64,000 nt of DNA, taken from NCBI GenBank assembly GCA_040954595.2, contig CM082592.2, positions 1,922,001-1,986,000 of the forward strand. The letters are read 5' to 3'. Shown here in pieces: positions 2,908 through 64,000 of the stretch. A model generated the notes under the pieces. That model did no database searches. It was not told the DNA's origin and saw only the letters and a program-made list of their open reading frames with translations. The position numbers and the translations under genes are program-made. Source of the stretch: Balanoglossus misakiensis. Lineage: Eukaryota > Animalia > Hemichordata. Each line of letters starts with the position of its first letter. The first letter of the stretch is position 1.

Positions 2908-3240
2908 TTAATAGCGAGAACTTCCAACAGAGGAAATAAAAAATGGGTTCAGTGTATGTCTTTTATATGTCAATGTGACCACACATTGTTCATGACGATT
3001 GGTATTATAAAAGTTGCATTTGTTATTTTCAAATGACATTCATCGCTGCATATATATCCTTGCTCAAAGTGTATCTATCTGTACTCGGTTTTGAATTGCC
3101 CACACTCGTTCTTAAATGTTGTATTTCATCTTGAAAGACATCATTACCATAAAGAGGTCACCATTTATGAGTAAAGAAGCATCACCCTCTATTTGCTCAC
3201 TTTTGAGATCCGCGCATGCGCGTGGCACGGAGGCCAGTAA

Positions 3241-20038: not shown

Positions 20039-22038
20039 ACACAGTAGATTCGAGGTAGGTTTTATTTTGTCTGACAAATACCGCAAGCAATATACGGATA
20101 TATCAACAGCTGCATTAATTGTAAATGTTCTAAATGTACCAGGAATTTGCAACCGTTTGTTGTCTGTGGGTTTATCTTAATACGATAAATGATCTCGTTC
20201 GGGTATATTTGATTTTAGCCGTTGTAATACTCGCTTTAACGTGAAATCGATTAAGATTGGTATAAACATGGTAAAAGTTAGTACAGGAAACAAAATTTAA
20301 CTCAGGCGATCCCATTGTTTTTAAGTGGAGTAATTTAAGCCTGACCCTCTCAGGACTAGATGTCACGTGCCTTTCATCACAATTGACAGTTTTCTGGTCT
20401 TATTGGACATAGGAAATGTGGTTGTGTTTTATATCTCAAATGTCACTGGTATGTGTCAATAGTATTGTATATCTCTCCTTGGATATTAATGTTTTTATAA
20501 TTTTCTGTATCTAGGGATTCACCCGAAGCACATCCCGCAATAAAGAATAACACGAAGCCCTACGGTAGGTCAAGTGAAATGATAATAACAGGAACTAGTA
20601 ATCGTGTAAGTTGGTCCTGGCGCTTTTTTTCCCATGATTCAAATTACAGTAAACGCCATATTGGAAATTCTGCCAACTTTCTGTCGTTTTTGCAAAAAAT
20701 TGCGCGACTTATACATGGCGAACATGTTTTTTTTTTCTGAAATAGTGGCTTCAAAGCTACCAAATTATGTAGAAATCAGCTGGACCGGATTTCCCCTTAA
20801 ATACAAGCAAAAATTAATCGTTATAACTTTGTAGTTGCCGTTTCGTTGTTGGACTTAAATAATAATGTTTTCTCGTCAAATCCCAAACAGACAACACCAC
20901 GCTATATCCCTTGTCCACCAAAAGGGCATTTCCTAAGCAGGTAAGTGTGTAAACTAGGTTTATGTGTTTCTACAATTTTGAAGGCAGAAGTAACTGCACG
21001 CGAGAATTATATCATACATACTACAGCAATGCTTGCTTTTTCTATTCCCAGGAGAAATTCTCTGCGTATTATGCAGCACAAAGGTCAAAAGGTAACTTCG
21101 AGATTTCACATCTTCAGTGATTCATAAGTGACGTTAATCTTAGGTTGTATTTCAAGGTCAGTGTGAATTATTCTTATGGCGTCACAATGTCGTAGTGTGT
21201 TTGCGTCCAAGAGATGGAGGAGAATGAGCTGAGGGGAACCAGAGAGAGGGGGAGACAGGCAGACAGAATTAACCGCACACAGGTTTGAAGTTGCCATGTT
21301 ATTTCAATTTAGAAAAGGGTTTTCAGCTACTTTGTGCATGAGAACAGGTCTAATAGTTTATGACACTTTTCATGTCTCCTTGCAGAGGCAGAAAATAAGA
21401 AACAGGCAGAAAGTAAGAAAAAGGAAAACAAAAATGTTACTTTCAGTGAAAATACAACGGTCTACGTTTTGTATGAGGAGCTCAAGAAATCTTCTGGTTA
21501 TGAACTGGTAAGTGGCGCAATTCGTTGTTGTAATCATTAAATGATTTTAGATTCCATTCCCATAGCTTGTATTACATTTTTTCTATATTTTAACACGTCA
21601 GTCACACACGCGCGCGCCTACGCACACACACACCCATACCAACAGACAGACAGATAGACAGACAGACGCTCAGACAGACAGACGTACATGCATAGTTAGC
21701 TGGATATGTTTAGCAATCAAATTTGTGAATACATGCACAGGAATTAACCTTGTTTCATGTCCAATCTAAATGTAGGAGTCTGCGAACATGAATACGGAAG
21801 GCACTGGAGTTCAATCGGGTAAGTGCATTTTGTATTAATTTTAACATTGTTTAGGATATATTGTGTGTTTTCCACCATTATATACAGTTTAGTGGTAAGT
21901 TTACTGACGTTTCATTTTTCGATTGTGTAATTCCAGGAAATCAAACCATTGAATGATTTACCACCCCCAAAGCACACATGGGTACAACAGGCACATGGTC
22001 CAGGGCCGATCGACAGGAGAACCGCCACAATGAAATAA
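20039..22038 (+). CDS. Cytoplasmic-tail micro-exons (20039-20054, 20515-20564, 20891-20940, 21052-21091, 21386-21507, 21776-21818, 21937-stop at 21956 or 22038)
   Basis: Each has a pyrimidine tract/AG and a GT donor. Phases chain 1-2-1-0-1-0 to give DTVDSRDSPEAHPAIKNNTKPYDNTTLYPLSTKRAFPKQEKFSAYYAAQRSKEAENKK..VYVLYEELKKSSGYEL. The frame of the last two exons is ambiguous. Confidence 0.65.
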
Positions 22039-24033
22039 CATTCCACTAAATAAAATATCACACTCCGTATATACAAGCTCTCCATTCATTAAATAAGTCT
22101 TCGATAGTTTTAGTGTCGCCTGATGAAATTATGCCCACGTCACGACTCTGGGGACCAGTGCTAATAAATTCGACATTGTAGCTGAGATAGCGTTGGTGGG
22201 CATGGTCAACATATCCGATACCATAGTGGGCAATGAGGGTAGAAATAACCAAGTTAATCGCGATTTCGTTCAATTTAGGCCTACTACGATAACTATATAC
22301 ATTGTATGTACTGTGAATTTAGAACAGTTAAAACGGTTTCCCTTGGTTACAGGATGTTTGCTTTCATGTGACCGACGCCCTCTCAAAAAGATAAGGTTCT
22401 CTTGTAACGGACTTTGATAGTATTGATTAAAATGTCGGATTGGTGGGAAATGGAAAAATCCATATATTGAGTATTCTCTTACTTAATTCGGTCTATAACC
22501 TTGTCTTATAGCATTAATCACGATATAAATACATGCAATTCGATGCAAGTCGCACAGTTTTATTGTATAGAGTTGTGAGGTGGGACGGTAAGGAAGAGCC
22601 GGCCACCATAGCGTGTCTATACCATGGGCTTCGTAGATGCCCTATCCTGATATCAGCGAAGAGCACTGTACCCGATTTGCACGCACGGGGGACTTTTGGT
22701 GATAACACCAAACTCTGCATGAACTTTACACCAATGAAAAAAGATCGCCATTTCCAAGAGAGTACATGGCACGGCCGGAGATTATTACGTTGTTCACTGC
22801 CATGGGGAAAATAGTCAATTTGGATATAAAAAAAGGCACAGACTTGGCACTGTTAAAGCGCGTAGCTCATCTCACAGGCATATTCCAGCTGTAGCCGCTG
22901 GTTACAGGCGTTTAGTGAACAGTCAATCCCATGAGGCTGCTCTGTCGTAACGACAGAGAAGATGGCGGCGCCCATAATCTGTGTCGGAGATCGTGAAAAG
23001 ACACCAGCTTGGGTGAAAAGGAGGGACAAAACCAGAATCTATACTTATACGGTGCGCATGAAAAATGGAAGGAAGCGAAGGCAGTCCACTATTTGAATGC
23101 ATCGAACGGAAAATTGGCTGGGAAGTTACGCGCATGCGCGTGAGACAAGACACACAACACAGACAATCCCCCAAATTTAAATCCCCGGGGACACAACAGA
23201 GGTACAGGTACAAGATGCTGACTTATTTGTACAAAATCGATGCAAACGTTAATTACATGATAAAATTCCACCTTGGGGATTCTGATACATTTCAACGAAA
23301 CACCTTTCCAACGTTAATCAGAATAAAACATTTAAAGTGACATTCCATTGATTATACCTTAATGACGTCATGAGAAATCTATTGACTTTTCCATAGCAAC
23401 AATATCTCCACCCCCGCCTGCCTTGTAACATGCGATAGGTTATATCTTTGGTATTTATTTATTCATTGCTTATTTATCTTTCTCGTAACACTTGATTGAT
23501 CGACATACATTGTAAGTTGTACACCTTGCTGTATCTGTACATTCCAGCCATATTTTTCACTACAGGTTGTAAATTTAAATTTATCAAAACAGTCTTCTGG
23601 TGTTTTTGTGAGCCGAATGAGAAGCTGACTACGCATGCGCCACGATGTTTTTTGAAATGTTATCACATACATTAGAATCATATTCATTCACTCGTTTGTG
23701 AAATGTAAAAGGCCATGCATTCCGAATGCCTTTTCACTATCTGACATTTTGTTTAATATCTCTCCTAGAATCACCCCCCCCCCAAAAAAAAAATCTCTTT
23801 AGACTTAAATGATGAAAACATACTGGTCTGAATGCTGCACATGCGCGATGAACGGCAGTGTGGCGTTTGGATTAACACTGAATAATTTACTAACATAATT
23901 TTGACCCGTAGCGATTACAGTCCACACCACGTGGAAGTAGGGTATATGATAAAAAGGGCACAACACCCTGGTTTTTATAAAGGGTCAAAGTCCTGAAATA
24001 TTGTCCTTGTTCACATTCGTTACTATGATTAGG

Positions 24034-24064
24034 TAGTAGTAGTAGAAGTAGTAGTTGTTGATGA

Positions 24065-24107
<43 letters not shown>
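24034..24107. repeat. (GTA)n/(GTT)n microsatellite
   Basis: Directly visible; length variant in the duplicate at ~32485-32567. Confidence 0.95.
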
Positions 24108-24109
<2 letters not shown>

Positions 24110-25509
24110 CAATTAATTACAAAACAGCTGCAGCATGAATCGCTATGAAATTGATGAGTCATATGCCCATGGCTGTTAGTATAAATAATTGAAACAAAAT
24201 GTCGAATCGTTAAATTTATTGTGGTACTAAATGGATTTGCATGACATGCCAATTTTGTAAATGTTCATGATGGAACTCGTATGTGTTCTTGGTCAAATTC
24301 GCGACGCACAATTCTCTGGAGGGTTTTTTTTTACACAGAAGAAATGAACAACACCACGTGTAGAGGGCGCCATGTGTTGGAGAAGCAGTGACTAGTGCGT
24401 TCTAGTCAGTTGTTGCCGTGTTACCGCATGGGGTGTAATCTCAAGCCAGATTCTGAATAACGCATGGTTTTCGATTGGCGGTACGTAGCTTTGGTAAACG
24501 ATGGTTAATAGCAGAAATGCTGCGTTGTTATGACAACAGACCAGTACAAGGAATAACCCGGAACTGTTTTCTGTTTAATCTAGGTGGGAATAATATGGCA
24601 GACATTTCACATAATACCCATCGTTTTATTTCATTGTCACTAGTTTTTGTTATGTTCCATTTCCTAAAACAACATCATTGCGTGTGAAGTTGTAAGAGGA
24701 AATTGCTAATTATACATTGGATTGTGAAAGTGTTAAACCAAAACGTGCAAGGAGACGCCATTACAAGTGCCTCATCTCACTAGCCATTATAATTAACCAT
24801 ACGAATATCAGGATGGTAATCCTTGCAATAGTAGTGGTCGCGTTCGTCACATCGTTGGAAAGAGCAGTATTGAACCGGGCTTGAAAATGTCACTTTTCGG
24901 CCTGTTGGACCACAGTACAAACCGTTGGCAAGGCGGTCCGGACACTTTAATATTAAAAATACAACGCCATATTAAGGTATAGGATGCTATGCAGGAATTG
25001 AGATCTCTTTATTAATAATGGAACTCAATACGTATTGACTTGTATTTTATAACGCTATTATTCGTCACGTAAACCTACCATGTTTAAAAAAATACAACTT
25101 ACGTTTTAGGGGAGTTTTTAAGCATACTAAACGTTAATTGGATTTCTCAAGCAATTTAACAGCTTATATCATGTCGATTCATGCAAACTACACTGTTGTT
25201 CACTTCTTGAAGACAGAGAGGGATGTTAAAGATACGACATACAAAAATCGTTTACTTACATCAACTGAACTACATATGACATGTAAGATATCGTCCTCAT
25301 AAAATTCTAATGTACATTCTAAACACTCCTCGCTCCTTTCTTCTTCTAACAAGTGTCCCTGAAATGAAAAATGTAACTCCTTATAGCATTATTTTTAAGT
25401 TCATGTTATTTTCGATAAACGATAACAACATTCAGTTACTAGACAGAGTCAAATGATATCCACACACTCTGATCGAGGTGACCAACAAGCACTCAGCGAC
25501 GGACGTACA

Positions 25510-25534
25510 TACAGACAAGACAGACAGGCAGAGT

Positions 25535-25594
<60 letters not shown>

Positions 25595-25730
25595 GGCAGG
25601 CAGGCAGAGTGACAGACAGACAGACAGGCAGAGTGACAGACAGACAGGCGGACATGCAGGCAGGCAGAGTGACAGAAAGACAGACAGACAGGCAGAGTGA
25701 CAGACAGACAAACAGACAGACAGGCAGAGT

Positions 25731-25770
<40 letters not shown>

Positions 25771-25952
25771 GGCAGGCAGGCAGGCAGAGTGACAGACAGA
25801 CAGACAGGCAGAGTGACAGACAGACAGGCGGACATGCAGGCAGGCAGAGTGACAGAAAGACAGACAGACAGGCAGAGTGACAGACAGACAAACAGACAGA
25901 CAGGCAGAGTGACAGACAGACAGACAGACAGACAGAGGGACAGACAGACAGA
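25510..25952. repeat. (GACA)n/(GGCA)n compound microsatellite with a 180-bp higher-order duplication
   Basis: Blocks starting at 25621 and 25801 are nearly identical; a shorter version lies in the duplicate at ~33950-34146. Confidence 0.95.
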
Positions 25953-27598: not shown

Positions 27599-29526
27599 GA
27601 GAGGTTCGGCTACACGTTATACGCGAACGTGAACGCGCAACGTCAACGTCAATAATCTTTACGGCCCTGATACGGGTTTTGCGGCCCGAGGTCGTACGGC
27701 GGAAGCGCCCGACCGCAGTGAGGGCGCGAATCGCCGTACGACCGAGGGCCGCAAAACCCGTATCAGGGCTGTAAGGGTTTTATCATATGCCTTATTGAAC
27801 CACAATCTACAAGAAATTAATAAAAATACACATTCTGTAATTTTTGGAAAGTAGAAATTACGTATTTATCTGCCGTTTTGAAATGATCAATCGCGTAGCA
27901 TAGAGCCGTATTCCTCCAGCTCTTGCGGATTGATATGCATGACGTCATTTGTTTACATTTTATACAGACGCGCTCGAGCTCACCCAGCCGATCGCGAGGG
28001 AGATATTAATTTTTTCCTCGCGACGATCGACGGCGACAGTCACACATTAATCAGATCAAAATTCAAATCATCAATATTACTAAGATATCATATTTGATTT
28101 TCCTAATAAAGCTCTACAACATGCAGGGATTACGGGAGAGGATGGGATCGGAAGCCATACACAGCCAACACTCAAGTCACTGACATCAGACAAATGGCAT
28201 TCAGAACGTAGCAATAACAATTTTAATGAACATTAAAATATTTTAGAAGAACATTAAAACAGCAAAGGTGAAAAAACGCAATTCAGTCTCTCAAAATTAA
28301 TAACAAAGTGTTCGATCGCGGCCCCCATCACCGGCGGTGCCCCATACCCGGAAGTCTCGCTAAGACTACTCGCTATCCGAATCAAACATCACAAACGGAC
28401 GCGGACGTTTCCTTGCGGCTCCAGCTTCAGCCGTCGATGGCATGCACATATGTATAGTGCAGTTGTTAAAAACTGTGGCTGGAGCTGCTTGTTGTTTGAA
28501 TGGACCGGGTTTTGTGTCTTCAGGAGTGCTACTGCTGGGCTTGCTTAGAATTGCTGAAATGCGCCGGTGATCCTCAATCGAAACGGTGTCGTAGTGTTGT
28601 AGACTGGTGACGTTTTTGTGTCCGGTTATTTTTATTATCTGCTGTGGTGGGATTCCTGCCTTCGTCTGTGTTTGAACGGTTGTCTTCCGTACAGAGTAAT
28701 TTGTTTTTCGCCCACCAAACTTCATTGCAGCTGCAGCTCGTGGCATAAATGAGGCGATTTTATTTTTCCCCATCGGTCGATCGAAATACCACACGAGTGA
28801 GTTGATGTCGACTGCGGGTATCGGTTGCAGATAGAATGGGCTGTCCAGGGTACATTTTTCGATCGGGCGGTGTTGAACGTGCTCGCGATAAATTCTGATA
28901 GGGTTTCTGGTAGAATCGGCAACAGAGAAAATGCGAGGTGGTACGGCACGACGATCTCCATATGTTCCATCGCGTGTTTTGGTATCGCGTTCCCGGAACT
29001 CTAAAAAATCGAGGCCAGAGCTATCCCTTTGGATAGTGATGTCTCCGAAGCACAGTTTTCTGTGCTCGTCCCGACCGCGTAGACCGAAGTGCTTCGTGAA
29101 TAAATACCACAGAGTGAAATTCAAGGTGTCACCGTCAGCGCTGCCAAGTTTGCCTTCTTTCCACATTGCCTCCTCTTCTTCTGGAGATATAGCTTCACTA
29201 GCATGACTGCCAGAGCCCATGCCAGACTTCTCGCTCAGTCGTACGAACCGTGCTCGGTTTTCTTTGCGATTTGATGAAATCGTTCACACTTGCCAAATCA
29301 TCTTCACCAACTGTTGCCTCGCTTTCTCCTTCGAGTCCGAAAAGTAAAACATCTAATTCGTCTTTTGGAATTTCTTCCATCCACCGGATAATATCGTCCG
29401 CAGCCATAATTTATCGTACTCAGCGCAGTGAAGTGGAGCAGACGACAACTTTCGAATCTCGCGCAATAAAAACAAAAGTAGATCCGGATATTGAACGCGT
29501 CTTCCAAATATGGTCACCGGGCCGGG
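27599..29526 (-). mobile_element. Crypton-type tyrosine-recombinase DNA transposon, internally deleted and truncated
   Basis: YR ORF plus a long subterminal hairpin at 27659-27774; occupies exactly the interval between the two duplication copies. Confidence 0.85.
28366..29407 (-). pseudogene. Crypton tyrosine recombinase (DUF3504/KCTD1-ZMYM-QRICH1-like domain), disrupted
   Basis: ORF 28366-29220 has AISPEEEEAMW..GKLG, HFGLRGRDEH, PFYLQP, PMGKNKI, TNYSVRKT, ITGHKN and LQHY. The N-terminal piece 29198-29407 (..QRKPSTVRTT) is out of frame and abuts it directly. Confidence 0.88.
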
Positions 29527-32500
29527 GCGTATTATGCAGCACAAAGGTCAAAAGGTAACTTCGAGATTTCACATCTTCAGTGATTCATAAGTGACGTTAA
29601 TCTTAGGTTGTATTTCAAGGTCAGTGTGAATTATTCTTATGGCGTCACAATGTCGTAGTGTGTTTGCGTCCAAGAGATGGAGGAGAATGAGCTGAGGGGA
29701 ACCAGAGAGAGGGGGAGACAGGCAGACAGAATTAGCCGCACACAGGTTTGAAGTTGCCATGTTATTTCAATTTAGAAAAGGGTTTTCAGCTACTTTGTGC
29801 ATGAGAACACTTTTCATTTCTCCTTGCAGAGGCAGAAAATAAGAAACAGGCAGAAAGTAAGAAAAAGGAAAACAAAAATGTTACTTTCAGTGAAAATAGA
29901 ACGGTCTACGTTTTGTATGAGGAGCTCAAGAAATCTTCTGGTTATGAACTGGTAAGTGGCGCAATTCGTTGTTGTAATCATTACATGATTTTAGATTCCA
30001 TTCCCATAGCTTGTATTACATTTTTTCTATATTTTAACACGTCAGTCACACACGCGCGCGCGCGCGCACACACACACACACACACCCATACACACAGACA
30101 GACAGATAGACAGACAGACGCTCAGACAGACAGACGTACATGCATAGTTAGCTGGATATGTTTAGCAATCAAATTTGTGAATACATGCACAGGAATTAAC
30201 CTTGTTTCATGTCCAATCTAAATGTAGGAGTCTGCGAACATGAATACGGAAGGCACTGGAGTTCAATCGGGTTAGTGCATTTTGTATTAATTTTAACATT
30301 GTTTAGGATATATTGTGTGTTTTCCACCATTATATACAGTTTAGTGGTAAGTTTACTGACGTTTCATTTTTCGATTGTGTAATTCCAGGAAATCAAACCA
30401 TTGAATGATTTACCACCCCCAAAGCACACATGGGTACAACAGGCACATGGTCCAGGGCCGATCGACAGGAGAACCGCCACAATGAAATAACATTCCACTA
30501 AATAAAATATCACACTCCGTATATACAAGCTCTCCATTCATTAAATAAGTCTTCGATAGTTTTAGTGTCGCCTGATGAAATTATGCCCACGTCACGACTC
30601 TGGGGACCAGTGCTAATAAATTCGACATTGTAGCTGAGATAGCGTTGGTGGGCATGGTCAACATATCCGATACCATAGTGGGCAATGAGGGTAGAAATAA
30701 CCAAGTTAATCGCGATTTCGTTCAATTTAGGCCTACTACGATAACTATATACATTGTATGTACTGTGAATTTAGAACAGTTAAAACGGTTTCCCTTGGTT
30801 ACAGGATGTTTGCTTTCATGTGACCGACGCCCTCTCAAAAAGATAAGGTTCTCTTGTAACGGACTTTGATAGTATTGATTAAAATGTCGGATTGGTGGGA
30901 AATGGAAAAATCCATATATTGAGTATTCTCTTACTTAATTCGGTCTATAACCTTGTCTTATAGCATTAATCACGATATAAATACATGCAATTCGATGCAA
31001 GTCGCACAGTTTTATTGTATAGAGTTGTGAGGTGGGACGGTAAGGAAGAGCCGGCCACCATAGCGTGTCTATACCATGGGCTTCGTAGATGCCCTATCCT
31101 GATATCAGCGAAGAGCACTGTACCCGATTTGCACGCACGGGGGACTTTTGGTGATAACACCAAACTCTGCATGAACTTTACACCAATGAAAAAAGATCGC
31201 CATTTCCAAGAGAGTACATGGCACGGCCGGAGATTATTACGCTGTTCACTGCCATGGGGAAAATAGTCAATTTGGATATAAAAAAGGCACAGACTTGGCA
31301 CTGTTAAAGCGCGTAGCTCATCTCACAGGCATATTCCAGCTGTAGCCGCTGGTTACAGGCGTTTAGTGAACAGTCAATCCCATGAGGCTGCTCTGTCCTA
31401 ACGACAGAGAAGATGGCGGCGCCCATAATCTGTGTCGGAGATCGTGAAAAGACACCAGCTTGGGTGAAAAGGAGGGACAAAACCAGAATCTATACTTATA
31501 CGGTGCGCATGAAAAATGCAAGGAAGCGAAGGCAGTCCACTATTTGAATGCATCGAACGGAAAATTGGCTGGGAAGTTACGCGCATGCGCGTGAGACAAG
31601 ACACACAACACAGACAATCCCCCAAATTTAAATCCCCGGGGACACAACAGAGGTACAGGTACAAGATGCTGACTTATTTGTACAAAATCGATGCAAACGT
31701 TAATTACATGATAAAATTCCACCTTGGGGATTCTGATACATTTCAACGAAACACCTTTCCAACGTTAATCAGAATAAAACATTTAAAGTGACATTCCATT
31801 GATTATACCTTAATGACGTCATGAGAAATCTATTGACTTTTCCATAGCAACAATATCTCCACCCCCGCCTGCCTTGTAACATGCGATAGGTTATATCTTT
31901 GGTATTTATTTATTCATTGCTTATTTATCTTTCTCGTAACACTTGATTGATCGACATACATTGTAAGTTGTACACCTTGCTGTATCTGTACATTCCAGCC
32001 ATATTTTTCACTACAGGTTGTAAATTTAAATTTATCAAAACAGTCTTCTGGTGTTTTTGTGAGCCGAATGAGAAGCTGACTACGCATGCGCCACGATGTT
32101 TTTTGAAATGTTATCACATACATTAGAATCATATTCATTCACTCGTTTGTGAAATGTGAAATGCCATGCATTCCGAATGCCTTTTCACTATCTGACATTT
32201 TGTTTAATATCTCTCCTAGAATCACCCCCCCCCCCAAAAAAAAATTCTCTTTAGACTTAAATGATGAAAACATACTGGTCTGAATGCTGCACATGCGCGA
32301 TGAACGGCAGTGTGGCGTTTGGATTAACACTGAATAATTTACTAACATAATTTTGACCCGTAGCGATTACAGTCCACACCACGTGGAAGTAGGGTATATG
32401 ATAAAAAGGGCACAACACCCTGGTTTTTATAAAGGGTCAAAGTCCTGAAATATTGTCCTTGTTCACATTCGTTACTATGATTAGGTAGTAGTAGTAGAAG

Positions 32501-32528
32501 TAGTAGTTGTTGTTGTTGATGATGATGA

Positions 32529-32570
<42 letters not shown>

Positions 32571-33976
32571 CAATTAATTACAAAACAGCTGCAGCATGAA
32601 TCGCTATGAAATTGATGAGTCGCGTATGCCCATGGCTGTTAGTATAAATAATTAAAACAAAATGTCGAATCGTTAAATTTATTGTGGTACTAAATGGATT
32701 TGCATGACATGCCAATTTTGTAAATGTTCATGATGGAACTCGTATGTGTTCTTGGTCAAATTCGCGACGCACAATTCTCTGGAGGTTTATTTTTACACAG
32801 AAGAAATGAACAACACCACGTGTAGAGGGCGCCATGTGTTGGAGAAGCAGTGACTAGTGCGTTCTAGTCAGTTGTTGCCGTGTTACCGCATGGGGTGTAA
32901 TCTCAAGCCAGATTCTGAATAACGCATGATTTTCGATTGGCGGTACGTAGCTTTGGTAAACGATGGTTAATAGCAGAAATGCTGCGTTGTTATGACAACA
33001 GACCAGTACAAGGAATAACCCGGAACTGTTTTCTGTTTAATCTAGGTGGGAATAATATGGCAGACGTTTCACATAATACCCATCGTTTTATTTCATTGTC
33101 ACTAGTTTTTTTTATGTTCCATTTCCTAAAACAACATAATTGCGTGTGAAGTTGTAAGAAGAAATTGCTAATTATACATTGGATTGTGAAAGTGTTAAAC
33201 CAAAACGTGCAAGGAGACGCCATTACAAGTGCCTCATCTCACTAGCCATTATAATTAACCATACGAATATCAGGATGGTAATCCTTGCAATAGTAGTGGT
33301 CGCGTTCGTCACATCGTTGGAAAGATCAGTATTGAACCGGGCTTGAAAATGTCACTTTTCGGCCTGTTGGCAAGGCGGTCCGGACACTTTAATATTAAAA
33401 ATACAACGCCATATTAAGGTATAGGATGCTATGCAGGAATTGAGATCTCTTTATTAATAATGGAACTCAATACGTATTGACTTGTATTTTATAACGCTAT
33501 TATTCGTCACGTAAACCTACCATGTTTAAAAAAATACAACTTACGTTTTAGGGGAGTTTTTAAGCATACTAAACGTTAATTGGATTTCTCAAGCAATTTA
33601 ACAGCTTATATCATGTCGATTCATGCAAAGTACACTGTTGTTCACTTCTTGAAGACAGAGAGGGATGTTAAAGATACGACATACAAAAATCGTTTACTTA
33701 CATCAACTGAACTACATATGACATGTAAGATATCGTCCTCATAAAATTCTAATGTACATTCTAAACACTCCTCGCTTCTTTCTTCTTCTAACAAGTGTCC
33801 CTGAAATGAAAAATGTAACTCCTGATAGCATTATTTTTAAGTTCATGTTATTTTCGATAAACGATAACAACATTCAGTTACTAGACAGAGTCAGATGATA
33901 TCCACACACTCTGATCGAGGCGACCAACAAGCACTCAGCGACGGACGGACATACAGACAAGACAGACAGGCAGAGT

Positions 33977-34016
<40 letters not shown>

Positions 34017-37000
34017 GGCAGGCAGAGTTACTGGCGGACAGGCAGGCAGAGTGACAGAAAGACAGACAGACAGGCAGGCAGAGTGACAGACAGACAAACA
34101 GACAGACAGGCAGAGGGACAGACAGACAGACAGAAAGACAGACAGAAACAATGTGACTAGTTCTCTTTTACTTTGGCTACGCTTAAAGGGAGACACACAT
34201 ACAAACCACATCGATCTTGTCCACTTGATCCACAAGCACGGACATCAGCCTGAATGTATGTGTCGGTCTAGACTATCTCACAACCCCTCTCGCCGTCCGT
34301 GCAGGCTTATGGTCTGATTGCATGTGTGCCCGGCAAGGGGGGGGGGGGGGGCGACTCATGAACTCTGCCCTCTAGTGGCTACTAAATTGACCAACCAGAG
34401 TGCGGCATTCTGGCTCACTCATATGCGCGTCTTGTCGACAGTAAAGGCTCGAAAAACCCCGTTTTTGAACAGAATGCGATCATCGAAATAAATCACGATC
34501 ACAAATTTAGAAAGTTACATTATGTGTGGAACACCAGACATTTTTTCTCGTATGATACTACAACCGATCATTTTCACACTTTGTCGGCCGATAAACGTAG
34601 TGCCAATGTAGGCTGATAAACACCAGTGCCGAAAGGCGGTTTTCAAACTACCGATCATTTCAAACTCTGTCGATCTTTTTAATAATAAGCCAAAGAGCGT
34701 AGTGCAGTAGCGTACCGAAAGGCCGTTTTCAAACTACCGATCTTTTTCATAATAAGCCGATATGACGGGACCGACACACGATGGACCTCCGTTTGAGCCA
34801 GACAATAGTCCCGGACACCAATACGACAAGTAGACAATAGAAAATCACAAAGAAATATGTTTTTTGGGGGGTCAGAACTTTTGTAAAAGTAAGGCTTCGA
34901 GGTATGAAAAGCGATTACACATCAACATGTCACGAAAATTCAGTTCACCCACGAGGAGACGCTCACACTACGTATACTGCATCATACGAAGGTTCAGGAG
35001 CTATGCACTAGTCAGGCGTGTGCGCTATACTATACATGCTATAGAACGGAATTGTTGCACTTGTAATCAGGGGCGATTTTGCAAAGACCCATGGGGGTAC
35101 ACACACCATTTTTCTAAAATAGTCAGAATATATATTGAAATTACCAAAATCGTTTCAAAATGTTACAATTATTTTTTTATAAGAAAGTGCTGCACATCTT
35201 AAAACACTATAAGGGACCGTTCAGTTTTTACGGCCGGGGGGGGGGGGGGCGGCAAAATCCAGGGGGGGTCACTTAAATTTTGAAGTCCACAAGGGGGGGG
35301 GGTCATCTGTTATTTTTAAACGTTTAGGGGGGGTCACATACTTTTGCCACCGAACTTTTGCTTTTGAGTCCACAAAATTGCAGTTTCGCACCCTTTATTT
35401 TACAAAATTTTCTAATGTGGGAGGGGCACACCCCCTCCCGCACCCACCCCCTTCATTCTCCGCCACATTTCATTTTTTGCTGGTTTGTCTAGTGTACCAG
35501 GGCAGAGTGCTTGCCACCCCAACCCCACCGATGATAATATTTAACAAAGTGAATACATAAAGGATAATAATTGTTTAAACCATTTTGCATAACTGATAGT
35601 TTCGCGCTGCATCTTCTATATACTAGAAGTTTTATAAATGATGTCTTGACAAGATGACGCCAAATCTTCAAACTTTGAGTGGAGTGGCAAAAAGTAAAAT
35701 TGGTCCTCCCAAACATTGAGATAATTTGCTTTTGAGTTCATTAAAATGCAACTTTGCGCTACATATTTTACTAAATTTTCTTATGTGGGAGGGGGACACC
35801 CCCTCCCACACCCACCCCCTCCTTTCTTCGCCACATTGCATTTATTCACTGGTTTGTCTAGTGTACCAGGGAAGACTTCTTGCCACCCCACCCCCATGCT
35901 TACTTTGAGTGGAGCGGCAAAATTAAAATTTGTCCTCCCTAACATTGAGTTAATTTGCTTTTGAGTTCATTAAATTGCAACTTTGAGCACCGTATTTTAC
36001 ACAATTTTCTTATGTGGGAGGGGGACACCCCCTCCCACGCCCACACCCGCCACTTTTCTTGTTTTACCGATTCTAGCAACTATTGTATTGACTTGTCATT
36101 TTAATTTGTTCATAGATTTCTTTATTGCAATGATATACTATTATAAACTTCAATAATACTTTAAGAAATATATAATTGAGGTGTGAGGAGCCTCATTCCC
36201 TTTATTGCATACAGTGTACATAGGATCAGGACGGCGAATGTTTTCGGCGTGGGGGGGGGTCATCATATTTTTGGGTCTGTCAAATGGGGGGTCATCATTT
36301 TTTGGTCCGGGTGAAGGGGGGGTCAGCCTGATTTTGAGAACCGATGACACAAACTTGCCACCCCCCCCCCCCTGCCGTAAAAACTGAACGGTCCCTAAAT
36401 TCGATGTTTATTATTTTTCCAAATTTCGGGTCACTGTAAGTTTTATCAGTTTTCCGCAAGGTTTATCAAGATATTTCGGTAAAAATGTGTCGTTTAATAG
36501 CTTAAACTACAAACTATCGATAAATGGTGAAAATGACTGTTAAAATACGATTATTCCGACGTAAATAAGCTTAGAAAATTACGCGGGAAATCAGCACACC
36601 ACTTCCGCATTTGAAAACAAGATAACGTTGAGGGCGCTGCAAAGTTTAGAAAACACCGGTCTTGACTCCACTGTCTTGCAGGAACCCTCATTTGCTCATT
36701 GCTACATATTCACAACATACACAACATACATGTAAACAATAAATTTATGATGATGAGACTAGAGCCAGACCATAGAGCAGTCAGACCCGTTTATTCGAAG
36801 CAAGGACAAAGTGCACTATATGCTGAGTAACGCCTGTAGGTTATTAAACTGCAGCTTTGCCTGCGGCGTGTGTGGTAATAAATCCTGTCGGCACCCTATC
36901 AAGCGAGTCACGAAAAAACAGAGGTAAACCTTTTTCAGAAAATACTCTGAAAACCTGCATCCATTTGCCATGCAAGATAGGGCTCGAGGAGTGGTGTTGG

Positions 37001-54487: not shown

Positions 54488-54619
54488 GTGTGACATCTGA
54501 CTTCGTTATTCATTTTCACTTACAGTACTGAAGTTTACCGACGCCCTTTAAAAACCCTCAGTTCATAGGCGGAATTGACTATGCGGAGGCTTAATGAGGT
54601 CACAGAAGTAGTTTTTTTA

Positions 54620-54772
54620 TTTTATACCTGTAATTTTTTTTCATGCCTGTAATAAAAATTTCATACCTGTAATAAAATTTCATACCTGTAATAAAAATTT
54701 CATACCTGTAATTAAAATTTCATGCCTGTAATTTTTTTTTTTTACTTTCGTGACCTTTGAACCTACAAGATC
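54620..54772. repeat. ~20-bp tandem repeat (TTTCATRCCTGTAATAAAA) plus TGACCTTTGAACCT motif; related inverted and direct copies at 57512-57665
   Basis: Directly visible. Confidence 0.8.
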
Positions 54773-57372: not shown

Positions 57373-57827
57373 GGTTCGTGCTGTCGTGGCCTATTGCAAG
57401 GGAGGGACAGACTGTACGTTGCTCGTTGCTTTTATACTTCGGCTCATTTGCATATGGCGGATGGATATCGCTCTGTGCCGCGGTTTTGAATAAGCCAGTC
57501 ACTCTACATGCGATCGTAAGTTGTAAGTTCAAAGGTCATGAAACTAAAAAAAAGAAAATTACAGGCATGAAACACTTCACGTCATCAGATCATGCCTGTA
57601 TTTTTTTTTACTTTAATGACCTTTGAACCTTATACATCATCTTGTGACCCTTGGCTCAGCTCAGTGAGCAACAGGCCAAATTTAGCATCAACCCATACAA
57701 GGCAGTCAGTAGAGAATGCAGAAAAAGTCGAACCAGCTATATACCGCTTGCTATGAACTGTTTTGACAGCACTAGTCATTTGTGGTGAATGAGCAGGCCC
57801 CGGCAATACATCGTAACTTGCAGCTTA

Positions 57828-58477: not shown

Positions 58478-58856
58478 TATACCTCATGCTAATACTGTGC
58501 CGTGATTCGCCAGAATCCGTCACGTGATAGGAAAATAGAATCGACTATGAACCGCTAGGTAAATAGCAGAAAAAATATAAACCGGTCACGTGACCAACGT
58601 GGTCACGTCAATCAGCGTCGTGTCGTCTGACACAATGGCCACCGCTGAAGATGTCGTCTGCCAGCCTCAAGAGAGAATTGCAAGATTTTCCCAGCTGTTA
58701 GCATGAGGTTTATATTCGGGCAATAGCAGCCGTTTTTACCCCCTCGTGACTGTGAGTTACCAGAATCATATGCTATTTCCCTCGGCCTGCGGCCTCGGGA
58801 AATAGCATATGATTCTGGTAACTCACAGCCCCTCGGGTGTAATAAACGGCCGCTAT
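58478..58856. mobile_element. Non-autonomous Crypton-type palindromic element
   Basis: Inverted repeats ACCTCATGCTAA / TTAGCATGAGGT (~58481 and ~58698), followed by a ~134-bp hairpin at 58723-58856. Confidence 0.65.
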
Positions 58857-59127
58857 GGCCCTCATGGCCAGGCAATAGGTGTTCAATATGAATAAATTAT
58901 AATGCTACACCATTGAGCGCATAGCCCGACTTGGCCAATTTTTGTGGGTAACCGATCGACCTTTCATAGCTTATAAGGCAAGTGGGATGAAAACAATGTG
59001 GTTTGTTTTGTTCTGCAAAAAGTGGTTTTAAAATTCAGACATTTGCAGAAAAGGGAAAAAACGGAAACTTGCGACAAAAAATAGTATCTATCAGGCTACA
59101 CTTTAATGGAAAAATTGTGAAAATATT

Positions 59128-59247
59128 AAGCCTACAGCACGTAGTATTCCCAGACGGTCTCCCGTCCAAGTACTAACTACGCCCAACGCAGGTTTGCTTC
59201 GGTGATCAGACGAGAACCGGCTTATTCTACGTGGTATGGCCGTAGGC
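59128..59247 (-). rRNA. 5S rRNA (variant type), copy 1
   Basis: GCCTACGGCCATACCACG..CTCGTCTGATC..TTAGTACTTGGACGGGAGACCGTCTGGGAATAC..GTGCTGTAGGCTT, 120 nt; helices I-V pair; T4/T5 runs just downstream. Confidence 0.93.
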
Positions 59248-59307
59248 GAAGGATTGTTGAAATTCTCCTGCTATGAACCCGAATGCTACACCATTGAACA
59301 CGTATCC

Positions 59308-60375
59308 CTACTTGGCCAATTTTAGTGGGTAACCGATCGACCTTTCATAGCTTATAAGGCAAGTGGGATGAAAAAAAATGTGGTTTGTTTTGTTCTGCAA
59401 AAAAAGAGGTATACCAAATAATATCATTAGAATTCTATCTGTTGTGTTAAACTTATTTACATTACAGGCACTGTAAATATACCCGAAAACAAGTTGCCAC
59501 AAGGATTGAATTGTCTGGCAGCACACAAGCAAATGATACACGTCTTCGGGGGGAAATGTGCAGAAGTCACAAGTAGGACTAAGGATTTTGCCTGCTTTGT
59601 AAAGACGAAGGTTACAAAAAACTGCGTTGTGACAAATGAGATAATCCAGATCACCCAGGTAGTTATCCTTGAAATTTGTGTAAACCTTACTAAAATCAAA
59701 GTTTGGCAGGTGGAAAAGCCAATACTGAACACCCGTGGGCACTGTTTTTCTCAGATGTCGAGCAATTGTAGTAATGTGTCTAACTTTAAGAGAATGGAAA
59801 GGAACACGTTGATTATGAGCATTAACAATAAAGAGAGACGGGTTTTTGTCCACTTTGTTATAATTTTTGTAATTACTCTGCAGAATATCATGCCACTTTT
59901 GAGGAATTGAATTGAGGATAATATGGTACTGCTTCTCAACAGTATTGCTTGTGGGAGTGTAGGGATGGGCCAATGAAACCATGTCACGAATTGCATCAAC
60001 AGGTAGGAACCCAGGAATGACCTCGTATAACAAATCTCTGATTTCAACAATGCCAGCTGAGCTGAACAGTTTTATGATCGGCAGAGGGCGCCCTTCAACA
60101 CTTGTAATGAAGGGGTTGTGAAACATGGGTTCATTGATAATTTCATCGTAGGAAATTGGTTGTGCACGTGAATACCTGAAAAGATGCGACCAAGACTGAA
60201 AAAGTTCCCTGTAGAATGTAGAACACTGGCGTAAGTTGGCAGTATAAAGTAACATTTTAAAAGTGTCAACACCACAATTGAGATTGAGATACTTATTTAA
60301 GTTGTAGGTGACAAACAACTTGAAAAAATGTGGTTTGTTTTGTTCTGCAAAACAGTGGTTTTGGAATTCAGACAT
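59308..60375 (-). CDS. 355-aa chimeric ORF: L1/Tx1-clade LINE ORF2 post-RT fragment (zf-RVT region) fused to 5S spacer sequence, unit 1
   Basis: FY..L..SW, EPMFHNPFI, SIPQKW and CDFC..PEDVYHLLVCC..LW..ILFG motifs. The LINE-derived part is ~59403-60322; start and stop come from the spacer. Expression is unproven. Confidence 0.75.
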   Translation of the reverse strand: MSEFQNHCFAEQNKPHFFKLFVTYNLNKYLNLNCGVDTFKMLLYTANLRQCSTFYRELFQSWSHLFRYSRAQPISYDEIINEPMFHNPFITSVEGRPLPIIKLFSSAGIVEIRDLLYEVIPGFLPVDAIRDMVSLAHPYTPTSNTVEKQYHIILNSIPQKWHDILQSNYKNYNKVDKNPSLFIVNAHNQRVPFHSLKVRHITTIARHLRKTVPTGVQYWLFHLPNFDFSKVYTNFKDNYLGDLDYLICHNAVFCNLRLYKAGKILSPTCDFCTFPPEDVYHLLVCCQTIQSLWQLVFGYIYSACNVNKFNTTDRILMILFGIPLFLQNKTNHIFFHPTCLISYERSIGYPLKLAK

Positions 60376-60460
60376 TTGCAGAAAAAGGAAAAAACGGAAA
60401 CTTGCGATAAAAAATATTACCCTTCCGTCTACACTTTAATGGAAAATTGGGGAAAATATT

Positions 60461-60580
60461 AAGCCTACAGCACGTAGTATTCCCAGACGGTCTCCCGTCC
60501 AAGTACTAACTATGCCCAACGCAGGTTTGCTTCGGTGATCAGACGAGAACCGGCTTATTCTACGTGGTATGGCCGTAGGC
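60461..60580 (-). rRNA. 5S rRNA (variant type), copy 2
   Basis: As copy 1 except G68A. Confidence 0.9.
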
Positions 60581-60640
60581 GAAGGATTGTTGAAATTCTC
60601 CTGCTATGAACCCGAATGCTACACCATTGAACACGTATCC

Positions 60641-61708
60641 CTACTTGGCCAATTTTAGTGGGTAACCGATCGACCTTTCATAGCTTATAAGGCAAGTGGG
60701 ATGAAAAAAAATGTGGTTTGTTTTGTTCTGCAAAAAAAGAGGTATACCAAATAATATCATTAGAATTCTATCTGTTGTGTTAAACTTATTTACATTACAG
60801 GCACTGTAAATATACCCGAAAACAAGTTGCCACAAGGATTGAATTGTCTGGCAGCACACAAGCAAATGATACACGTCTTCGGGGGGAAATGTGCAGAAGT
60901 CACAAGTAGGACTAAGGATTTTGCCTGCTTTGTAAAGACGAAGGTTACAAAAAACTGCGTTGTGACAAATGAGATAATCCAGATCACCTAGGTAGTTATC
61001 CTTGAAATTTGTGTAAACCTTACTAAAATCAAAGTTTGGCAGGTGGAAAAGCCAATACTGAACACCCGTGGGCACTGTTTTTCTCAGATGTCGAGCAATT
61101 GTAGTAATGTGTCTAACTTTAAGAGAATGGAAAGGAACACGTTGATTATGAGCATTAACAATAAACAGAGACGGGTTTTTGTCCACTTTGTTATAATTTT
61201 TGTAATTACTCTGCAGAATATCATGCCACTTTTGAGGAATTGAATTGAGGATAATATGGTACTGCTTCTCAACAGTATTGCTTGTGGGAGTGTAGGGATG
61301 GGCCAATGAAACCATGTCACGAATTGCATCAACAGGTAGGAACCCAGGAATGACCTCGTATAACAAATCTCTGATTTCAACAATGCCAGCTGAGCTGAAC
61401 AGTTTTATGATCGGCAGAGGGCGCCCTTCAACACTTGTAATGAAGGGGTTGTGAAACATGGGTTCATTGATAATTTCATCGTAGGAAATTGGTTGTGCAC
61501 GTGAATACCTGAAAAGATGCGACCAAGACTGAAAAAGTTCCCTGTAGAATGTAGAACACTGGCGTAAGTTGGCAGTATAAAGTAACATTTTAAAAGTGTC
61601 AACACCACAATTGAGATTGAGATACTTATTTAAGTTGTAGGTGACAAACAACTTGAAAAAATGTGGTTTGTTTTGTTCTGCAAAACAGTGGTTTTGGAAT
61701 TCAGACAT
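60641..61708 (-). CDS. 355-aa LINE-fragment ORF, unit 2
   Basis: Translation identical to unit 1. Confidence 0.75.
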   Translation of the reverse strand: MSEFQNHCFAEQNKPHFFKLFVTYNLNKYLNLNCGVDTFKMLLYTANLRQCSTFYRELFQSWSHLFRYSRAQPISYDEIINEPMFHNPFITSVEGRPLPIIKLFSSAGIVEIRDLLYEVIPGFLPVDAIRDMVSLAHPYTPTSNTVEKQYHIILNSIPQKWHDILQSNYKNYNKVDKNPSLFIVNAHNQRVPFHSLKVRHITTIARHLRKTVPTGVQYWLFHLPNFDFSKVYTNFKDNYLGDLDYLICHNAVFCNLRLYKAGKILSPTCDFCTFPPEDVYHLLVCCQTIQSLWQLVFGYIYSACNVNKFNTTDRILMILFGIPLFLQNKTNHIFFHPTCLISYERSIGYPLKLAK

Positions 61709-61793
61709 TTGCAGAAAAAGGAAAAAACGGAAACTTGCGATAAAAAATATTACCCTTCCGTCTACACTTTAATGGAAAATTGGGGAAAATATT

Positions 61794-61913
61794 AAGCCTA
61801 CAGCACGTAGTATTCCCAGACGGTCTCCCGTCCAAGTACTAACTATGCCCAACGCAGGTTTGCTTCGGTGATCAGACGAGAACCGGCTTATTCTACGTGG
61901 TATGGCCGTAGGC
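61794..61913 (-). rRNA. 5S rRNA (variant type), copy 3
   Basis: Same sequence as copy 2. Confidence 0.9.
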
Positions 61914-62010
61914 GAAGGATTGTTGAAATTCTCCTGCTATGAACCCGAATGCTACACCATTGAACACGTATCCCTACTTGGCCAATTTTAGTGGGTAACC
62001 GATCGACCTT

Positions 62011-63042
62011 TCATAGCTTATAAGGCAAGTGGGATGAAAAAAAAATGTGGTTTGTTTTGTTCTGCAAAAAAAGAGGTATACCAAATAATATCATTAGAAT
62101 TCTATCTGTTGTGTTAAACTTATTTACATTACAGGCACTGTAAATATACCCGAAAACAAGTTGCCACAAGGATTGAATTGTCTGGCAGCACACAAGCAAA
62201 TGATACACGTCTTCGGGGGGAAATGTGCAGAAGTCACAAGTAGGACTAAGGATTTTGCCTGCTTTGTAAAGACGAAGGTTACAAAAAACTGCGTTGTGAC
62301 AAATGAGATAATCCAGATCACCTAGGTAGTTATCCTTGAAATTTGTGTAAACCTTACTAAAATCAAAGTTTGGCAGGTGGAAAAGCCAATACTGAACACC
62401 CGTGGGCACTGTTTTTCTCAGATGTCGAGCAATTGTAGTAATGTGTCTAACTTTAAGAGAATGGAAAGGAACACGTTGATTATGAGCATTAACAATAAAG
62501 AGAGACGGGTTTTTGTCCACTTTGTTATAATTTTTGTAATTACTCTGCAGAATATCATGCCACTTTTGAGGAATTGAATTGAGGATAATATGGTACTGCT
62601 TCTCAACAGTATTGCTTGTGGGAGTGTAGGGATGGGCCAATGAAACCATGTCACGAATTGCATCAACAGGTAGGAACCCAGGAATGACCTCGTATAACAA
62701 ATCTCTGATTTCAACAATGCCAGCTGAGCTGAACAGTTTTATGATCGGCAGAGGGCGCCCTTCAACACTTGTAATGAAGGGGTTGTGAAACATGGGTTCA
62801 TTGATAATTTCATCGTAGGAAATTGGTTGTGCACGTGAATACCTGAAAAGATGCGACCAAGACTGAAAAAGTTCCCTGTAGAATGTAGAACACTGGCGTA
62901 AGTTGGCAGTATAAAGTAACATTTTAAAAGTGTCAACACCACAATTGAGATTGAGATACTTATTTAAGTTGTAGGTGACAAACAACTTGAAAAAATGTGG
63001 TTTGTTTTGTTCTGCAAAACAGTGGTTTTGGAATTCAGACAT
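62011..63042 (-). CDS. 343-aa LINE-fragment ORF, unit 3
   Basis: One extra A in the homopolymer at ~62037-62045 changes only the spacer-derived C-terminus. Confidence 0.7.
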   Translation of the reverse strand: MSEFQNHCFAEQNKPHFFKLFVTYNLNKYLNLNCGVDTFKMLLYTANLRQCSTFYRELFQSWSHLFRYSRAQPISYDEIINEPMFHNPFITSVEGRPLPIIKLFSSAGIVEIRDLLYEVIPGFLPVDAIRDMVSLAHPYTPTSNTVEKQYHIILNSIPQKWHDILQSNYKNYNKVDKNPSLFIVNAHNQRVPFHSLKVRHITTIARHLRKTVPTGVQYWLFHLPNFDFSKVYTNFKDNYLGDLDYLICHNAVFCNLRLYKAGKILSPTCDFCTFPPEDVYHLLVCCQTIQSLWQLVFGYIYSACNVNKFNTTDRILMILFGIPLFLQNKTNHIFFSSHLPYKL

Positions 63043-63127
63043 TTGCAGAAAAAGGAAAAAACGGAAACTTGCGATAAAAAATATTACCCTTCCGTCTACA
63101 CTTTAATGGAAAATTGGGGAAAATATT

Positions 63128-63247
63128 AAGCCTACAGCACGTAGTATTCCCAGACGGTCTCCCGTCCAAGTACTAACTATGCCCAACGCAGGTTTGCTTC
63201 GGTGATCAGACGAGAACCGGCTTATTCTACGTGGTATGGCCGTAGGC
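63128..63247 (-). rRNA. 5S rRNA (variant type), copy 4
   Basis: Same sequence as copy 2. Confidence 0.9.
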
Positions 63248-63307
63248 GAAGGATTGTTGAAATTCTCCTGCTATGAACCCGAATGCTACACCATTGAACA
63301 CGTATCC

Positions 63308-64000
63308 CTACTTGGCCAATTTTAGTGGGTAACCGATCGACCTTTCATAGCTTATAAGGCAAGTGGGATGAAAAAAAATGTGGTTTGTTTTGTTCTGCAA
63401 AAAAAGAGGTATACCAAATAATATCATTAGAATTCTATCTGTTGTGTTAAACTTATTTACATTACAGGCACTGTAAATATACCCGAAAACAAGTTGCCAC
63501 AAGGATTGAATTGTCTGGCAGCACACAAGCAAATGATACACGTCTTCGGGGGGAAATGTGCAGAAGTCACAAGTAGGACTAAGGATTTTGCCTGCTTTGT
63601 AAAGACGAAGGTTACAAAAAACTGCGTTGTGACAAATGAGATAATCCAGATCACCTAGGTAGTTATCCTTGAAATTTGTGTAAACCTTACTAAAATCAAA
63701 GTTTGGCAGGTGGAAAAGCCAATACTGAACACCCGTGGGCACTGTTTTTCTCAGATGTCGAGCAATTGTAGTAATGTGTCTAACTTTAAGAGAATGGAAA
63801 GGAACACGTTGATTATGAGCATTAACAATAAAGAGAGACGGGTTTTTGTCCACTTTGTTATAATTTTTGTAATTACTCTGCAGAATATCATGCCACTTTT
63901 GAGGAATTGAATTGAGGATAATATGGTACTGCTTCTCAACAGTATTGCTTGTGGGAGTGTAGGGATGGGCCAATGAAACCATGTCACGAATTGCATCAAC
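63308..64000 (-). CDS. LINE-fragment ORF, unit 4 (partial; 5' part outside the window)
   Basis: Translation matches the C-terminal 224 aa of unit 1. Confidence 0.7.
   Translation of the reverse strand, partial: VDAIRDMVSLAHPYTPTSNTVEKQYHIILNSIPQKWHDILQSNYKNYNKVDKNPSLFIVNAHNQRVPFHSLKVRHITTIARHLRKTVPTGVQYWLFHLPNFDFSKVYTNFKDNYLGDLDYLICHNAVFCNLRLYKAGKILSPTCDFCTFPPEDVYHLLVCCQTIQSLWQLVFGYIYSACNVNKFNTTDRILMILFGIPLFLQNKTNHIFFHPTCLISYERSIGYPLKLAK

What the first reader, a model, noticed from the sequence alone, without database searches (positions are those of the whole stretch)
58901..64000. 5S rDNA array in which every full unit carries an open retrotransposon-derived 355-aa ORF
Seen: each 1333-bp unit is a 120-nt 5S gene plus a spacer holding ~920 bp of LINE ORF2. 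Only the post-RT/zinc-finger region is present: no endonuclease, RT, 3' UTR or poly(A). It lies on the same strand as 5S, and the ORF starts ~85 bp downstream of the preceding 5S gene. The frame is open throughout and picks up an in-frame ATG and a stop from the spacer. The two substitutions I found between units inside the ORF (59656 C vs 60989 T; 59833 G vs 61166 C) are both synonymous Leu changes. Known: Tx1-group LINEs include elements specific for multicopy RNA genes (e.g. Mutsu for 5S rDNA), and 5S arrays undergo concerted evolution. Inference: either a passive fragment amplified with the array, or a domesticated multicopy module, such as a small-RNA trap against the parent LINE or a nucleic-acid-binding/dominant-negative ORF2 C-terminal protein. 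Two SNPs are far too few to show selection.
Basis: partly seen in the sequence, partly recalled or inferred. Interest (0 to 1): 0.82.

Follow-up and report, generated by a model that had tools for sequence, protein, structure and literature searches.

The report
LINE fragment hitchhiking in 5S array
A broken middle piece of a jumping gene sits between 5S ribosomal RNA genes and is repeated along with them; its reading frame is likely still open because it came from a working element, not because the animal uses it, which makes this an ordinary, known kind of event.

Summary
The array is real, but only 2 of 3 full units give 355 aa; the third gains one base in the spacer and gives 343 aa. The insert matches residues 907-1214 of a full 1304-aa L1/Tx1-type ORF2 (79% identity), cut at both ends and with a 4-codon deletion. 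Two public DNA runs (one sample, possibly the window's source) hold the same 3' junction, so it is no assembly artefact. By rough depth, filled units are a small minority (about 0.5-8%) of 5S units. Differences among filled-unit variants are 7 non-synonymous to 3 synonymous, as expected without selection. Five Pol III T-runs precede the ATG, and there is no poly(A) signal. One result is unexplained: fragment versus parent family is 13 non-synonymous to 19 synonymous. A sister-subfamily donor would account for it, but I did not find one. Best reading: one non-canonical LINE insertion, spread by unequal exchange. TE pieces in 5S spacers are in print, and this scan noted a similar case in another genome.

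The parts
58903..59128 (.). Empty spacer at the array edge; one copy of the 30-bp motif (about 58991-59020); no insert
   Evidence: 95/108 and 111/118 identical to the two halves of the filled spacer; its ATG at 59042 is followed by a stop at codon 5
59129..59247 (-). 5S rRNA gene (G at position 68)
   Evidence: Rfam RF00001, 98.8 bits
59308..60375 (-). 355-aa chimeric ORF of unit 1: 17 spacer codons, 304 LINE codons, 34 junction and spacer codons
59373..59402 (.). 30-bp direct repeat, copy at the LINE 3' junction (likely target-site duplication)
   Evidence: 30/30 identical to 60323-60352
59403..59412 (.). 10-bp junction segment that does not match the parent family; resembles both LINE and target
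   Evidence: parent-family contig stops aligning at 59413
59413..60324 (-). LINE ORF2 fragment, equal to residues 907-1214 of P0001 (wrist-like region and zinc knuckle), with a 12-bp deletion near 59681
   Evidence: 79% identity to P0001; zf-RVT E=5e-4, below the curated cut-off; L1 ORF2p is the best fold match; deletion table 4
60323..60352 (.). 30-bp direct repeat, copy at the LINE 5' junction; 2-nt overlap with LINE sequence
60376..60461 (-). 86 nt between the 5S 3' end and the ATG, with five runs of 4-6 T (Pol III terminator-like)
60462..60580 (-). 5S rRNA gene with G68>A (breaks a base pair)
60617..61949 (-). Filled unit 2 (355-aa ORF 60641-61708; 5S 61795-61913)
61950..63283 (-). Filled unit 3, 1334 bp; extra A at about 62037 gives a 343-aa ORF (62011-63042); 5S 63129-63247
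63284..64000 (-). Filled unit 4, cut by the window end

Best explanation
A 912-bp internal piece of an L1/Tx1-type LINE ORF2 sits in a 5S spacer between 30-bp direct repeats; it was likely inserted once and then copied passively with its 5S gene, and its frame is likely open only by inheritance from a working LINE. Shown: the empty and filled sites, the duplication, truncation at both ends inside ORF2, and identical junctions in all units. Inferred: (1) a staggered break at the T/A-rich spacer site was filled by copying LINE RNA from an internal point (internal or twin-priming-like reverse transcription, or templated gap repair), which explains the missing 3' end and poly(A); (2) unequal exchange and gene conversion amplified this unit into a minor 5S class; (3) the donor was a sister subfamily of the family seen in the runs; (4) the ATG and stop are chance spacer codons and the ORF is not made into protein.
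For: Empty edge unit with one motif copy against filled units with two exact copies. The parent family continues past both ends in runs X1/X2 (loose ends at 59413 and 60324; read by hand, they match P0001-P0003 beyond the break). The fragment lacks ORF2 residues 1215-1304, which hold 7 columns conserved in at least 60% of 62 homologues and three predicted helices. Among filled-unit variants there are 7 N: 3 S changes; neutral expectation is 21-28% synonymous, omega 0.6-0.9, and P(S<=3 of 10) is 0.02-0.08 if omega were 0.2. Unit 3 is frameshifted in its tail, and X2 lists single-base deletions at 59526 and 59551 at low depth. The 12-bp deletion removes a column that is W/Y/F in 56 of 62 homologues, and F>L hits a column that is F in 49 of 62. 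Only 4.3% of single changes make a stop, so a frame stays open through 10 substitutions with probability 0.64. There are five T-runs before the ATG and no TATA or AATAAA in the unit; the stop is 60 nt from the next 5S gene. The same scenario is in print (PMC10946416 sections 8-9).
Against: Fragment versus parent family is 13 N: 19 S, omega about 0.2, P<0.001 against neutrality. Amino-acid changes fall on both branches, so part of this constraint lies on the fragment's branch. A near-identical donor subfamily would explain it, but none was visible in the contigs. The among-unit sample is small (omega 95% interval about 0.15-5; Fisher test against 13:19 gives P=0.15). The only fixed indel is in frame. 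All four zinc ligands are kept, and the ORF model is confident (mean pLDDT 85, driven by its alignment). The spacer frame upstream is open in filled units but has a stop in the empty unit. The 30-bp duplication is longer than the 7-20 bp of the published twin-priming loci and there is no 14-39 nt poly(T), so the exact insertion route is unsettled. No RNA data were available.
Confidence: 0.82

Rival explanations
1. The fragment was domesticated: the array expresses a 355-aa ORF2 wrist and zinc-knuckle protein that binds nucleic acid or interferes with the parent LINE.
For: 13 N: 19 S against the parent family with no donor found; in-frame deletion; zinc ligands intact; confident model; an in-frame spacer ATG whose frame is open only in filled units.
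Against: 7 N: 3 S among filled units; 1 of 3 full units frameshifted; the last 90 residues and a conserved aromatic are lost; Pol III terminators upstream and no poly(A) signal; no relative of similar length passed E<=0.001 (weak), and the only relative above 55% identity among the 150 listed of 532 is the full-length ORF2.
Confidence: 0.06
2. The filled array is kept as a small-RNA source: read-through or bidirectional transcription gives piRNAs or siRNAs against the parent LINE, with no need for the frame.
For: About 96% DNA identity to a family that is abundant in X1/X2 (about 40 differences in 912 bp), enough for pairing (inference). piRNAs against 5S-resident Mutsu exist in zebrafish (PMC5340908 section 9).
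Against: The fragment is sense to the LINE relative to 5S read-through, so primary read-through RNA could not pair with LINE mRNA; five T-runs should stop Pol III first. Making some small RNA would not show selection for it.
Confidence: 0.06
3. A target-specific Tx1 element (Mutsu-like) inserts repeatedly at this spacer site, and each unit is an independent insertion.
For: Target-specific Tx1-clade elements exist (PMC4640811 passages); the parent's own 3' flanks were not seen.
Against: All units share both truncation points, the junction segment and the 12-bp deletion; independent insertions would differ at the 5' end and keep the natural 3' end.
Confidence: 0.02
4. The tandem of filled units is an assembly artefact of one copy.
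For: Units are 99.85-100% identical; no record spans a whole unit.
Against: Units differ at 3 sites; junction and fragment-type contigs have depth 333-659 in X1 and 1520-3630 in X2, close to that of the multicopy parent family.
Confidence: 0.02

Closest known systems
TE fragments in the 5S non-transcribed spacer spread by homogenisation of one insertion (Garcia et al. 2024, PMC10946416; sections 8 part 2 and 9 read): Allium schoenoprasum long-spacer family, Musa copia fragments, LINE pieces in fish such as Diplodus sargus
   Same: A TE piece in the spacer creates a second, longer 5S unit class beside the short one; identical insertions across monomers
   Different: Here the piece is pure coding sequence with an open frame, and the empty site and duplication can be read base by base; the review names only fish among animals for 5S spacers, and this genome is likely an invertebrate (other notes of this scan, unchecked)
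Mutsu, the 5S-specific non-LTR element of zebrafish (PMC5340908; passages and sections 5 and 9 read)
   Same: LINE with an APE endonuclease type ORF2 residing in 5S arrays
   Different: Mutsu is about 5.5 kb with two ORFs and inserts about 20 nt inside the 5S gene, disrupting it; this is a 0.9-kb doubly truncated piece in the spacer with the gene left whole
Twin-priming variant L1 insertions lacking a 3' poly(A) (Meyer et al. 2010, PMC2837659; abstract, passages and section 6 read)
   Same: Truncated LINE piece between target duplications, T-run on the 5' side, no poly(A), short filler at a junction
   Different: Their duplications are 7-20 bp and their poly(T) 14-39 nt; here 30 bp and only a T6 run inside the repeat
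Human LINE-1 ORF2p post-thumb region (PDB 9hdo, 9hdr, 8uw3)
   Same: Best fold matches for both models; best sequence match for the parent's EN-RT part (E=1e-79)
   Different: Weak for the fragment (E=3e-3, TM 0.28) and stronger for the complete parent tail (E=1e-4, TM 0.46-0.49); 11-14% identity

Membership tests
TE fragment homogenised in a 5S spacer | TE-derived sequence inside the spacer, 5S gene uninterrupted | tested here: met
TE fragment homogenised in a 5S spacer | Identical junctions in all units (single origin) | tested here: met
   3 of 3 full units share both junctions; partial unit 4 shares the one it holds
TE fragment homogenised in a 5S spacer | Coexists with an empty, short-spacer class | tested here: met
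   empty edge unit; far higher depth on 5S and spacer than on the insert in X1/X2
L1/Tx1-type LINE ORF2 (parent) | APE endonuclease, RT and C-terminal zinc knuckle in one ORF | tested here: met
   P0001: PF03372, PF00078, PF13966; L1 ORF2p best PDB hit. The fragment itself holds only the last part
Tx1 clade as opposed to L1 clade | Placement with named Tx1 elements in an RT tree | not tested
Mutsu | Insertion about 20 nt inside the 5S gene | tested here: not met
   Insert lies 109 nt beyond the 3' end of one gene and 125 nt before the next
Mutsu | Family-wide target specificity for 5S rDNA | not testable with these tools
   No genome held; contigs did not show the parent's 3' flanks
Canonical TPRT insertion | Natural 3' end with poly(A) or tail | tested here: not met
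   Ends at ORF2 codon 1214 of 1304
Canonical TPRT insertion | Target-site duplication | tested here: met
   30/30 bp
Domesticated TE gene | Purifying selection after insertion | tested here: inconclusive
   7 N: 3 S among filled units (neutral-like) but 13 N: 19 S against the family, unpolarised
Domesticated TE gene | Expression as mRNA or protein | not testable with these tools
   No RNA holder listed; sequence shows no Pol II signals
Domesticated TE gene | Conservation in other species | tested here: inconclusive
   No similar-length close relative; the databases cover such animals thinly

The most novel reading that the evidence does not exclude
A minor, sequence-distinct 5S gene class has captured the ORF2 wrist and zinc-knuckle region of a LINE, and purifying selection has kept it open as a multicopy protein-coding cassette, amplified by rDNA concerted evolution, that restrains the parent LINE.
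Probability: 0.06. Interest if true: 0.8.

Novelty: new member of a known kind. Interest (0 to 1): 0.2.

Why it matters
As read here it is a clean example of a known process: one retrotransposon accident becomes a new 5S unit class. It also shows how an open 355-aa frame can arise in an rDNA spacer without selection, a trap for annotation. If the novel case held, it would be a protein-coding TE domestication that uses an rDNA array for copy number; my literature searches showed no such case, though they cover only open-access text.

Tried and rejected
No whole genome is held, so array length, donor copies and target sites could not be read. No RNA holder was listed; this says nothing on expression. 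Run X3 laid no contig. A scan of JGI metagenomes for outgroup DNA gave 74 pattern matches and 0 confirmed, so synonymous changes could not be polarised. The near-length protein search gave 0 of 546 candidates. Cluster names gave no clade label. The identity of the two repeat copies (30/30) is too short to date the insertion. Depth is not a copy number: no single-copy calibration was made, 5S contigs like human DNA may be dropped, and GATC-type joints suggest proximity-ligation libraries (inference). Rejected: Mutsu membership, canonical TPRT, independent insertions, assembly artefact. Searches of earlier findings by sequence, near this place, and for 5S in this genome were empty. No supplements were read; those of PMC10946416 or PMC5340908 might list closer cases.
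Full report
Observation. Rfam finds four 119-nt 5S genes on the minus strand at 59129-59247, 60462-60580, 61795-61913 and 63129-63247, spaced 1333, 1333 and 1334 bp. Units 1 and 2 carry the 355-aa ORF. Unit 3 has one more A in a spacer run at about 62037 and gives 343 aa with another tail. Unit 4 is cut by the window end. So the title holds for 2 of 3 full units, although the LINE-derived part is open in all three. The two SNPs are synonymous as stated.

The array begins with a 381-bp empty unit (58903-59283) that has one copy of a 30-bp A/T-rich motif. Each filled unit has two exact copies (59373-59402, 60323-60352) around a 920-bp insert. This is an empty site against a filled site with a likely target duplication. 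The empty spacer is 88-94% identical to the filled one, so it is a sister spacer and not the direct ancestor.

What the insert is. The only close relative found is P0001, a 1304-aa ORF2 with endonuclease, RT and zf-RVT, whose best solved relative is human L1 ORF2p. ORF residues 18-321 match P0001 907-1214 at 79% with a 4-residue gap. The first 17 and last 34 codons come from spacer and junction. The fragment therefore ends 90 codons before the end of ORF2. Those residues hold 7 conserved columns and three predicted helices. Models of the ORF and of the parent tail both match L1 ORF2p best, the ORF weakly. Whether the parent is Tx1 or L1 clade was not tested.

Public runs. Three DNA runs of one sample were listed; two hold 56-58% of the words, and they may be the window's own source. 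In both, a contig joins the 30-bp motif to the LINE at the 3' junction (depth 463 in X1, 2582 in X2). The 5' junction is supported only indirectly. Other contigs run on past 59413 and 60324 as LINE sequence; translated by hand, the 3' loose end matches P0002/P0003 at 9 of 10 residues, and the 5' loose ends show at least two subfamilies. The parent has 12 bp at 59681 that the fragment lacks. At six flanking positions the window's allele makes up 0.45-6.6% (X1) and 0.7-24% (X2) of summed depth; at four of them, 0.45-0.9% and 0.7-7.9%. The tool warns that depth is no copy number, so the safe statement is that filled units are a small minority of 5S units.

Selection. One search listed 40 of 42 substitution sites. 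From the contig table I assigned 8 to differences among filled-unit variants (window, X1, X2) and 32 to fragment versus family, and added the 2 window SNPs; each change was classed singly against the window codon. Among filled units: 7 non-synonymous, 3 synonymous; neutral expectation is 21-28% synonymous; omega 0.6-0.9, with a wide interval (about 0.15-5), and omega 0.2 is disfavoured at P 0.02-0.08. Fragment versus family: 13 to 19, omega about 0.2. Judged by P0001, at least five amino-acid changes arose on the family side and at least three on the fragment side, so the visible family is not the direct donor. The constraint is expected if the donor was an active sister subfamily. I could not find that donor, and this is the main result against my reading. 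Changes on the fragment side include the deletion of a column that is W/Y/F in 56 of 62 homologues and F>L at a column that is F in 49 of 62. An open frame needs little explanation: 4.3% of single changes make a stop.

Expression. Between the 5S end and the ATG lie 86 nt with five runs of 4-6 T. The unit has no TATA box or AATAAA on this strand, and the stop is 60 nt from the next 5S gene. Pol III stops at T-runs and gives uncapped RNA (established knowledge), so 5S read-through is an unlikely mRNA source. The same ATG exists in the empty spacer, followed by a stop at codon 5. No RNA run could be examined.

Mechanism. Shown: double truncation, duplication, shared junctions, a 10-bp junction segment unlike the parent. 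Inferred: a staggered break at the T/A-rich site was filled by copying LINE RNA from an internal point. Meyer et al. (PMC2837659; abstract, passages, section 6) describe truncated L1 pieces between duplications without poly(A), but with shorter duplications and longer poly(T), so the route is only partly matched. Unequal exchange then amplified the unit.

Comparison. Garcia et al. (PMC10946416; passages, section 8 part 2, section 9) call TE insertions in the 5S spacer relatively frequent, cite a second long-spacer family made this way in Allium and LINE pieces in fish, and name homogenisation of one insertion as their first scenario. Mutsu inserts inside the gene (PMC5340908; passages, sections 5 and 9), so membership fails. 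PMC4640811 was seen as passages only. Other notes take this genome for an acorn worm (unchecked); a search for 5S rDNA, hemichordate and spacer found 0 papers.

Verdict. A real feature and a new member of a known kind: passive co-amplification 0.82, domesticated protein 0.06, small-RNA source 0.06. Interest 0.2.

Noticed in passing
window 60513, 61846, 63180 (5S position 68): The three 5S genes inside the filled array carry G68>A, which breaks a base pair (Rfam marks it; fold energy -50.2 to -44.8 kcal/mol) and lies in what I recall as the intermediate element of the internal promoter. The edge gene has G68, as do nearly all contigs of X1/X2. These copies may be drifting.
   Followed up: partly
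window 59129-59247 and the other 5S genes: The window's 5S type (C84, T94, T4 terminator) is a minority in X2 (4-8% of depth at those sites); the common type has T84, C94 and another spacer. A rare long-spacer class beside a common short one recalls the somatic and maternal 5S types of zebrafish (PMC5340908 section 5). Untested.
   Followed up: partly
window 58733-58845: 113-bp palindrome (55-nt arms, 85% complementary) about 60 bp outside the array edge; possibly a small mobile element.
   Followed up: no
window 57527-57628: Inverted repeat with 27-nt arms, related to the 39-bp tandem repeat at 54619-54733.
   Followed up: no
window 28366-29283 (-): 305-codon open frame with DUF3504 (E=1e-22); I recall this domain from tyrosine-recombinase (Crypton-like) elements.
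   Followed up: no
window 10535-11449 (-): Rhodopsin-family GPCR frame (7tm_1, E=7e-16, residues 70-212); the match covers only the first 144 of 260 profile positions, so it may be spliced or frameshifted.
   Followed up: no
window 21386-25952 and 29830-34146: The same series of microsatellites occurs twice, about 8.4 kb apart, which suggests a segmental duplication or two copies of one element.
   Followed up: no
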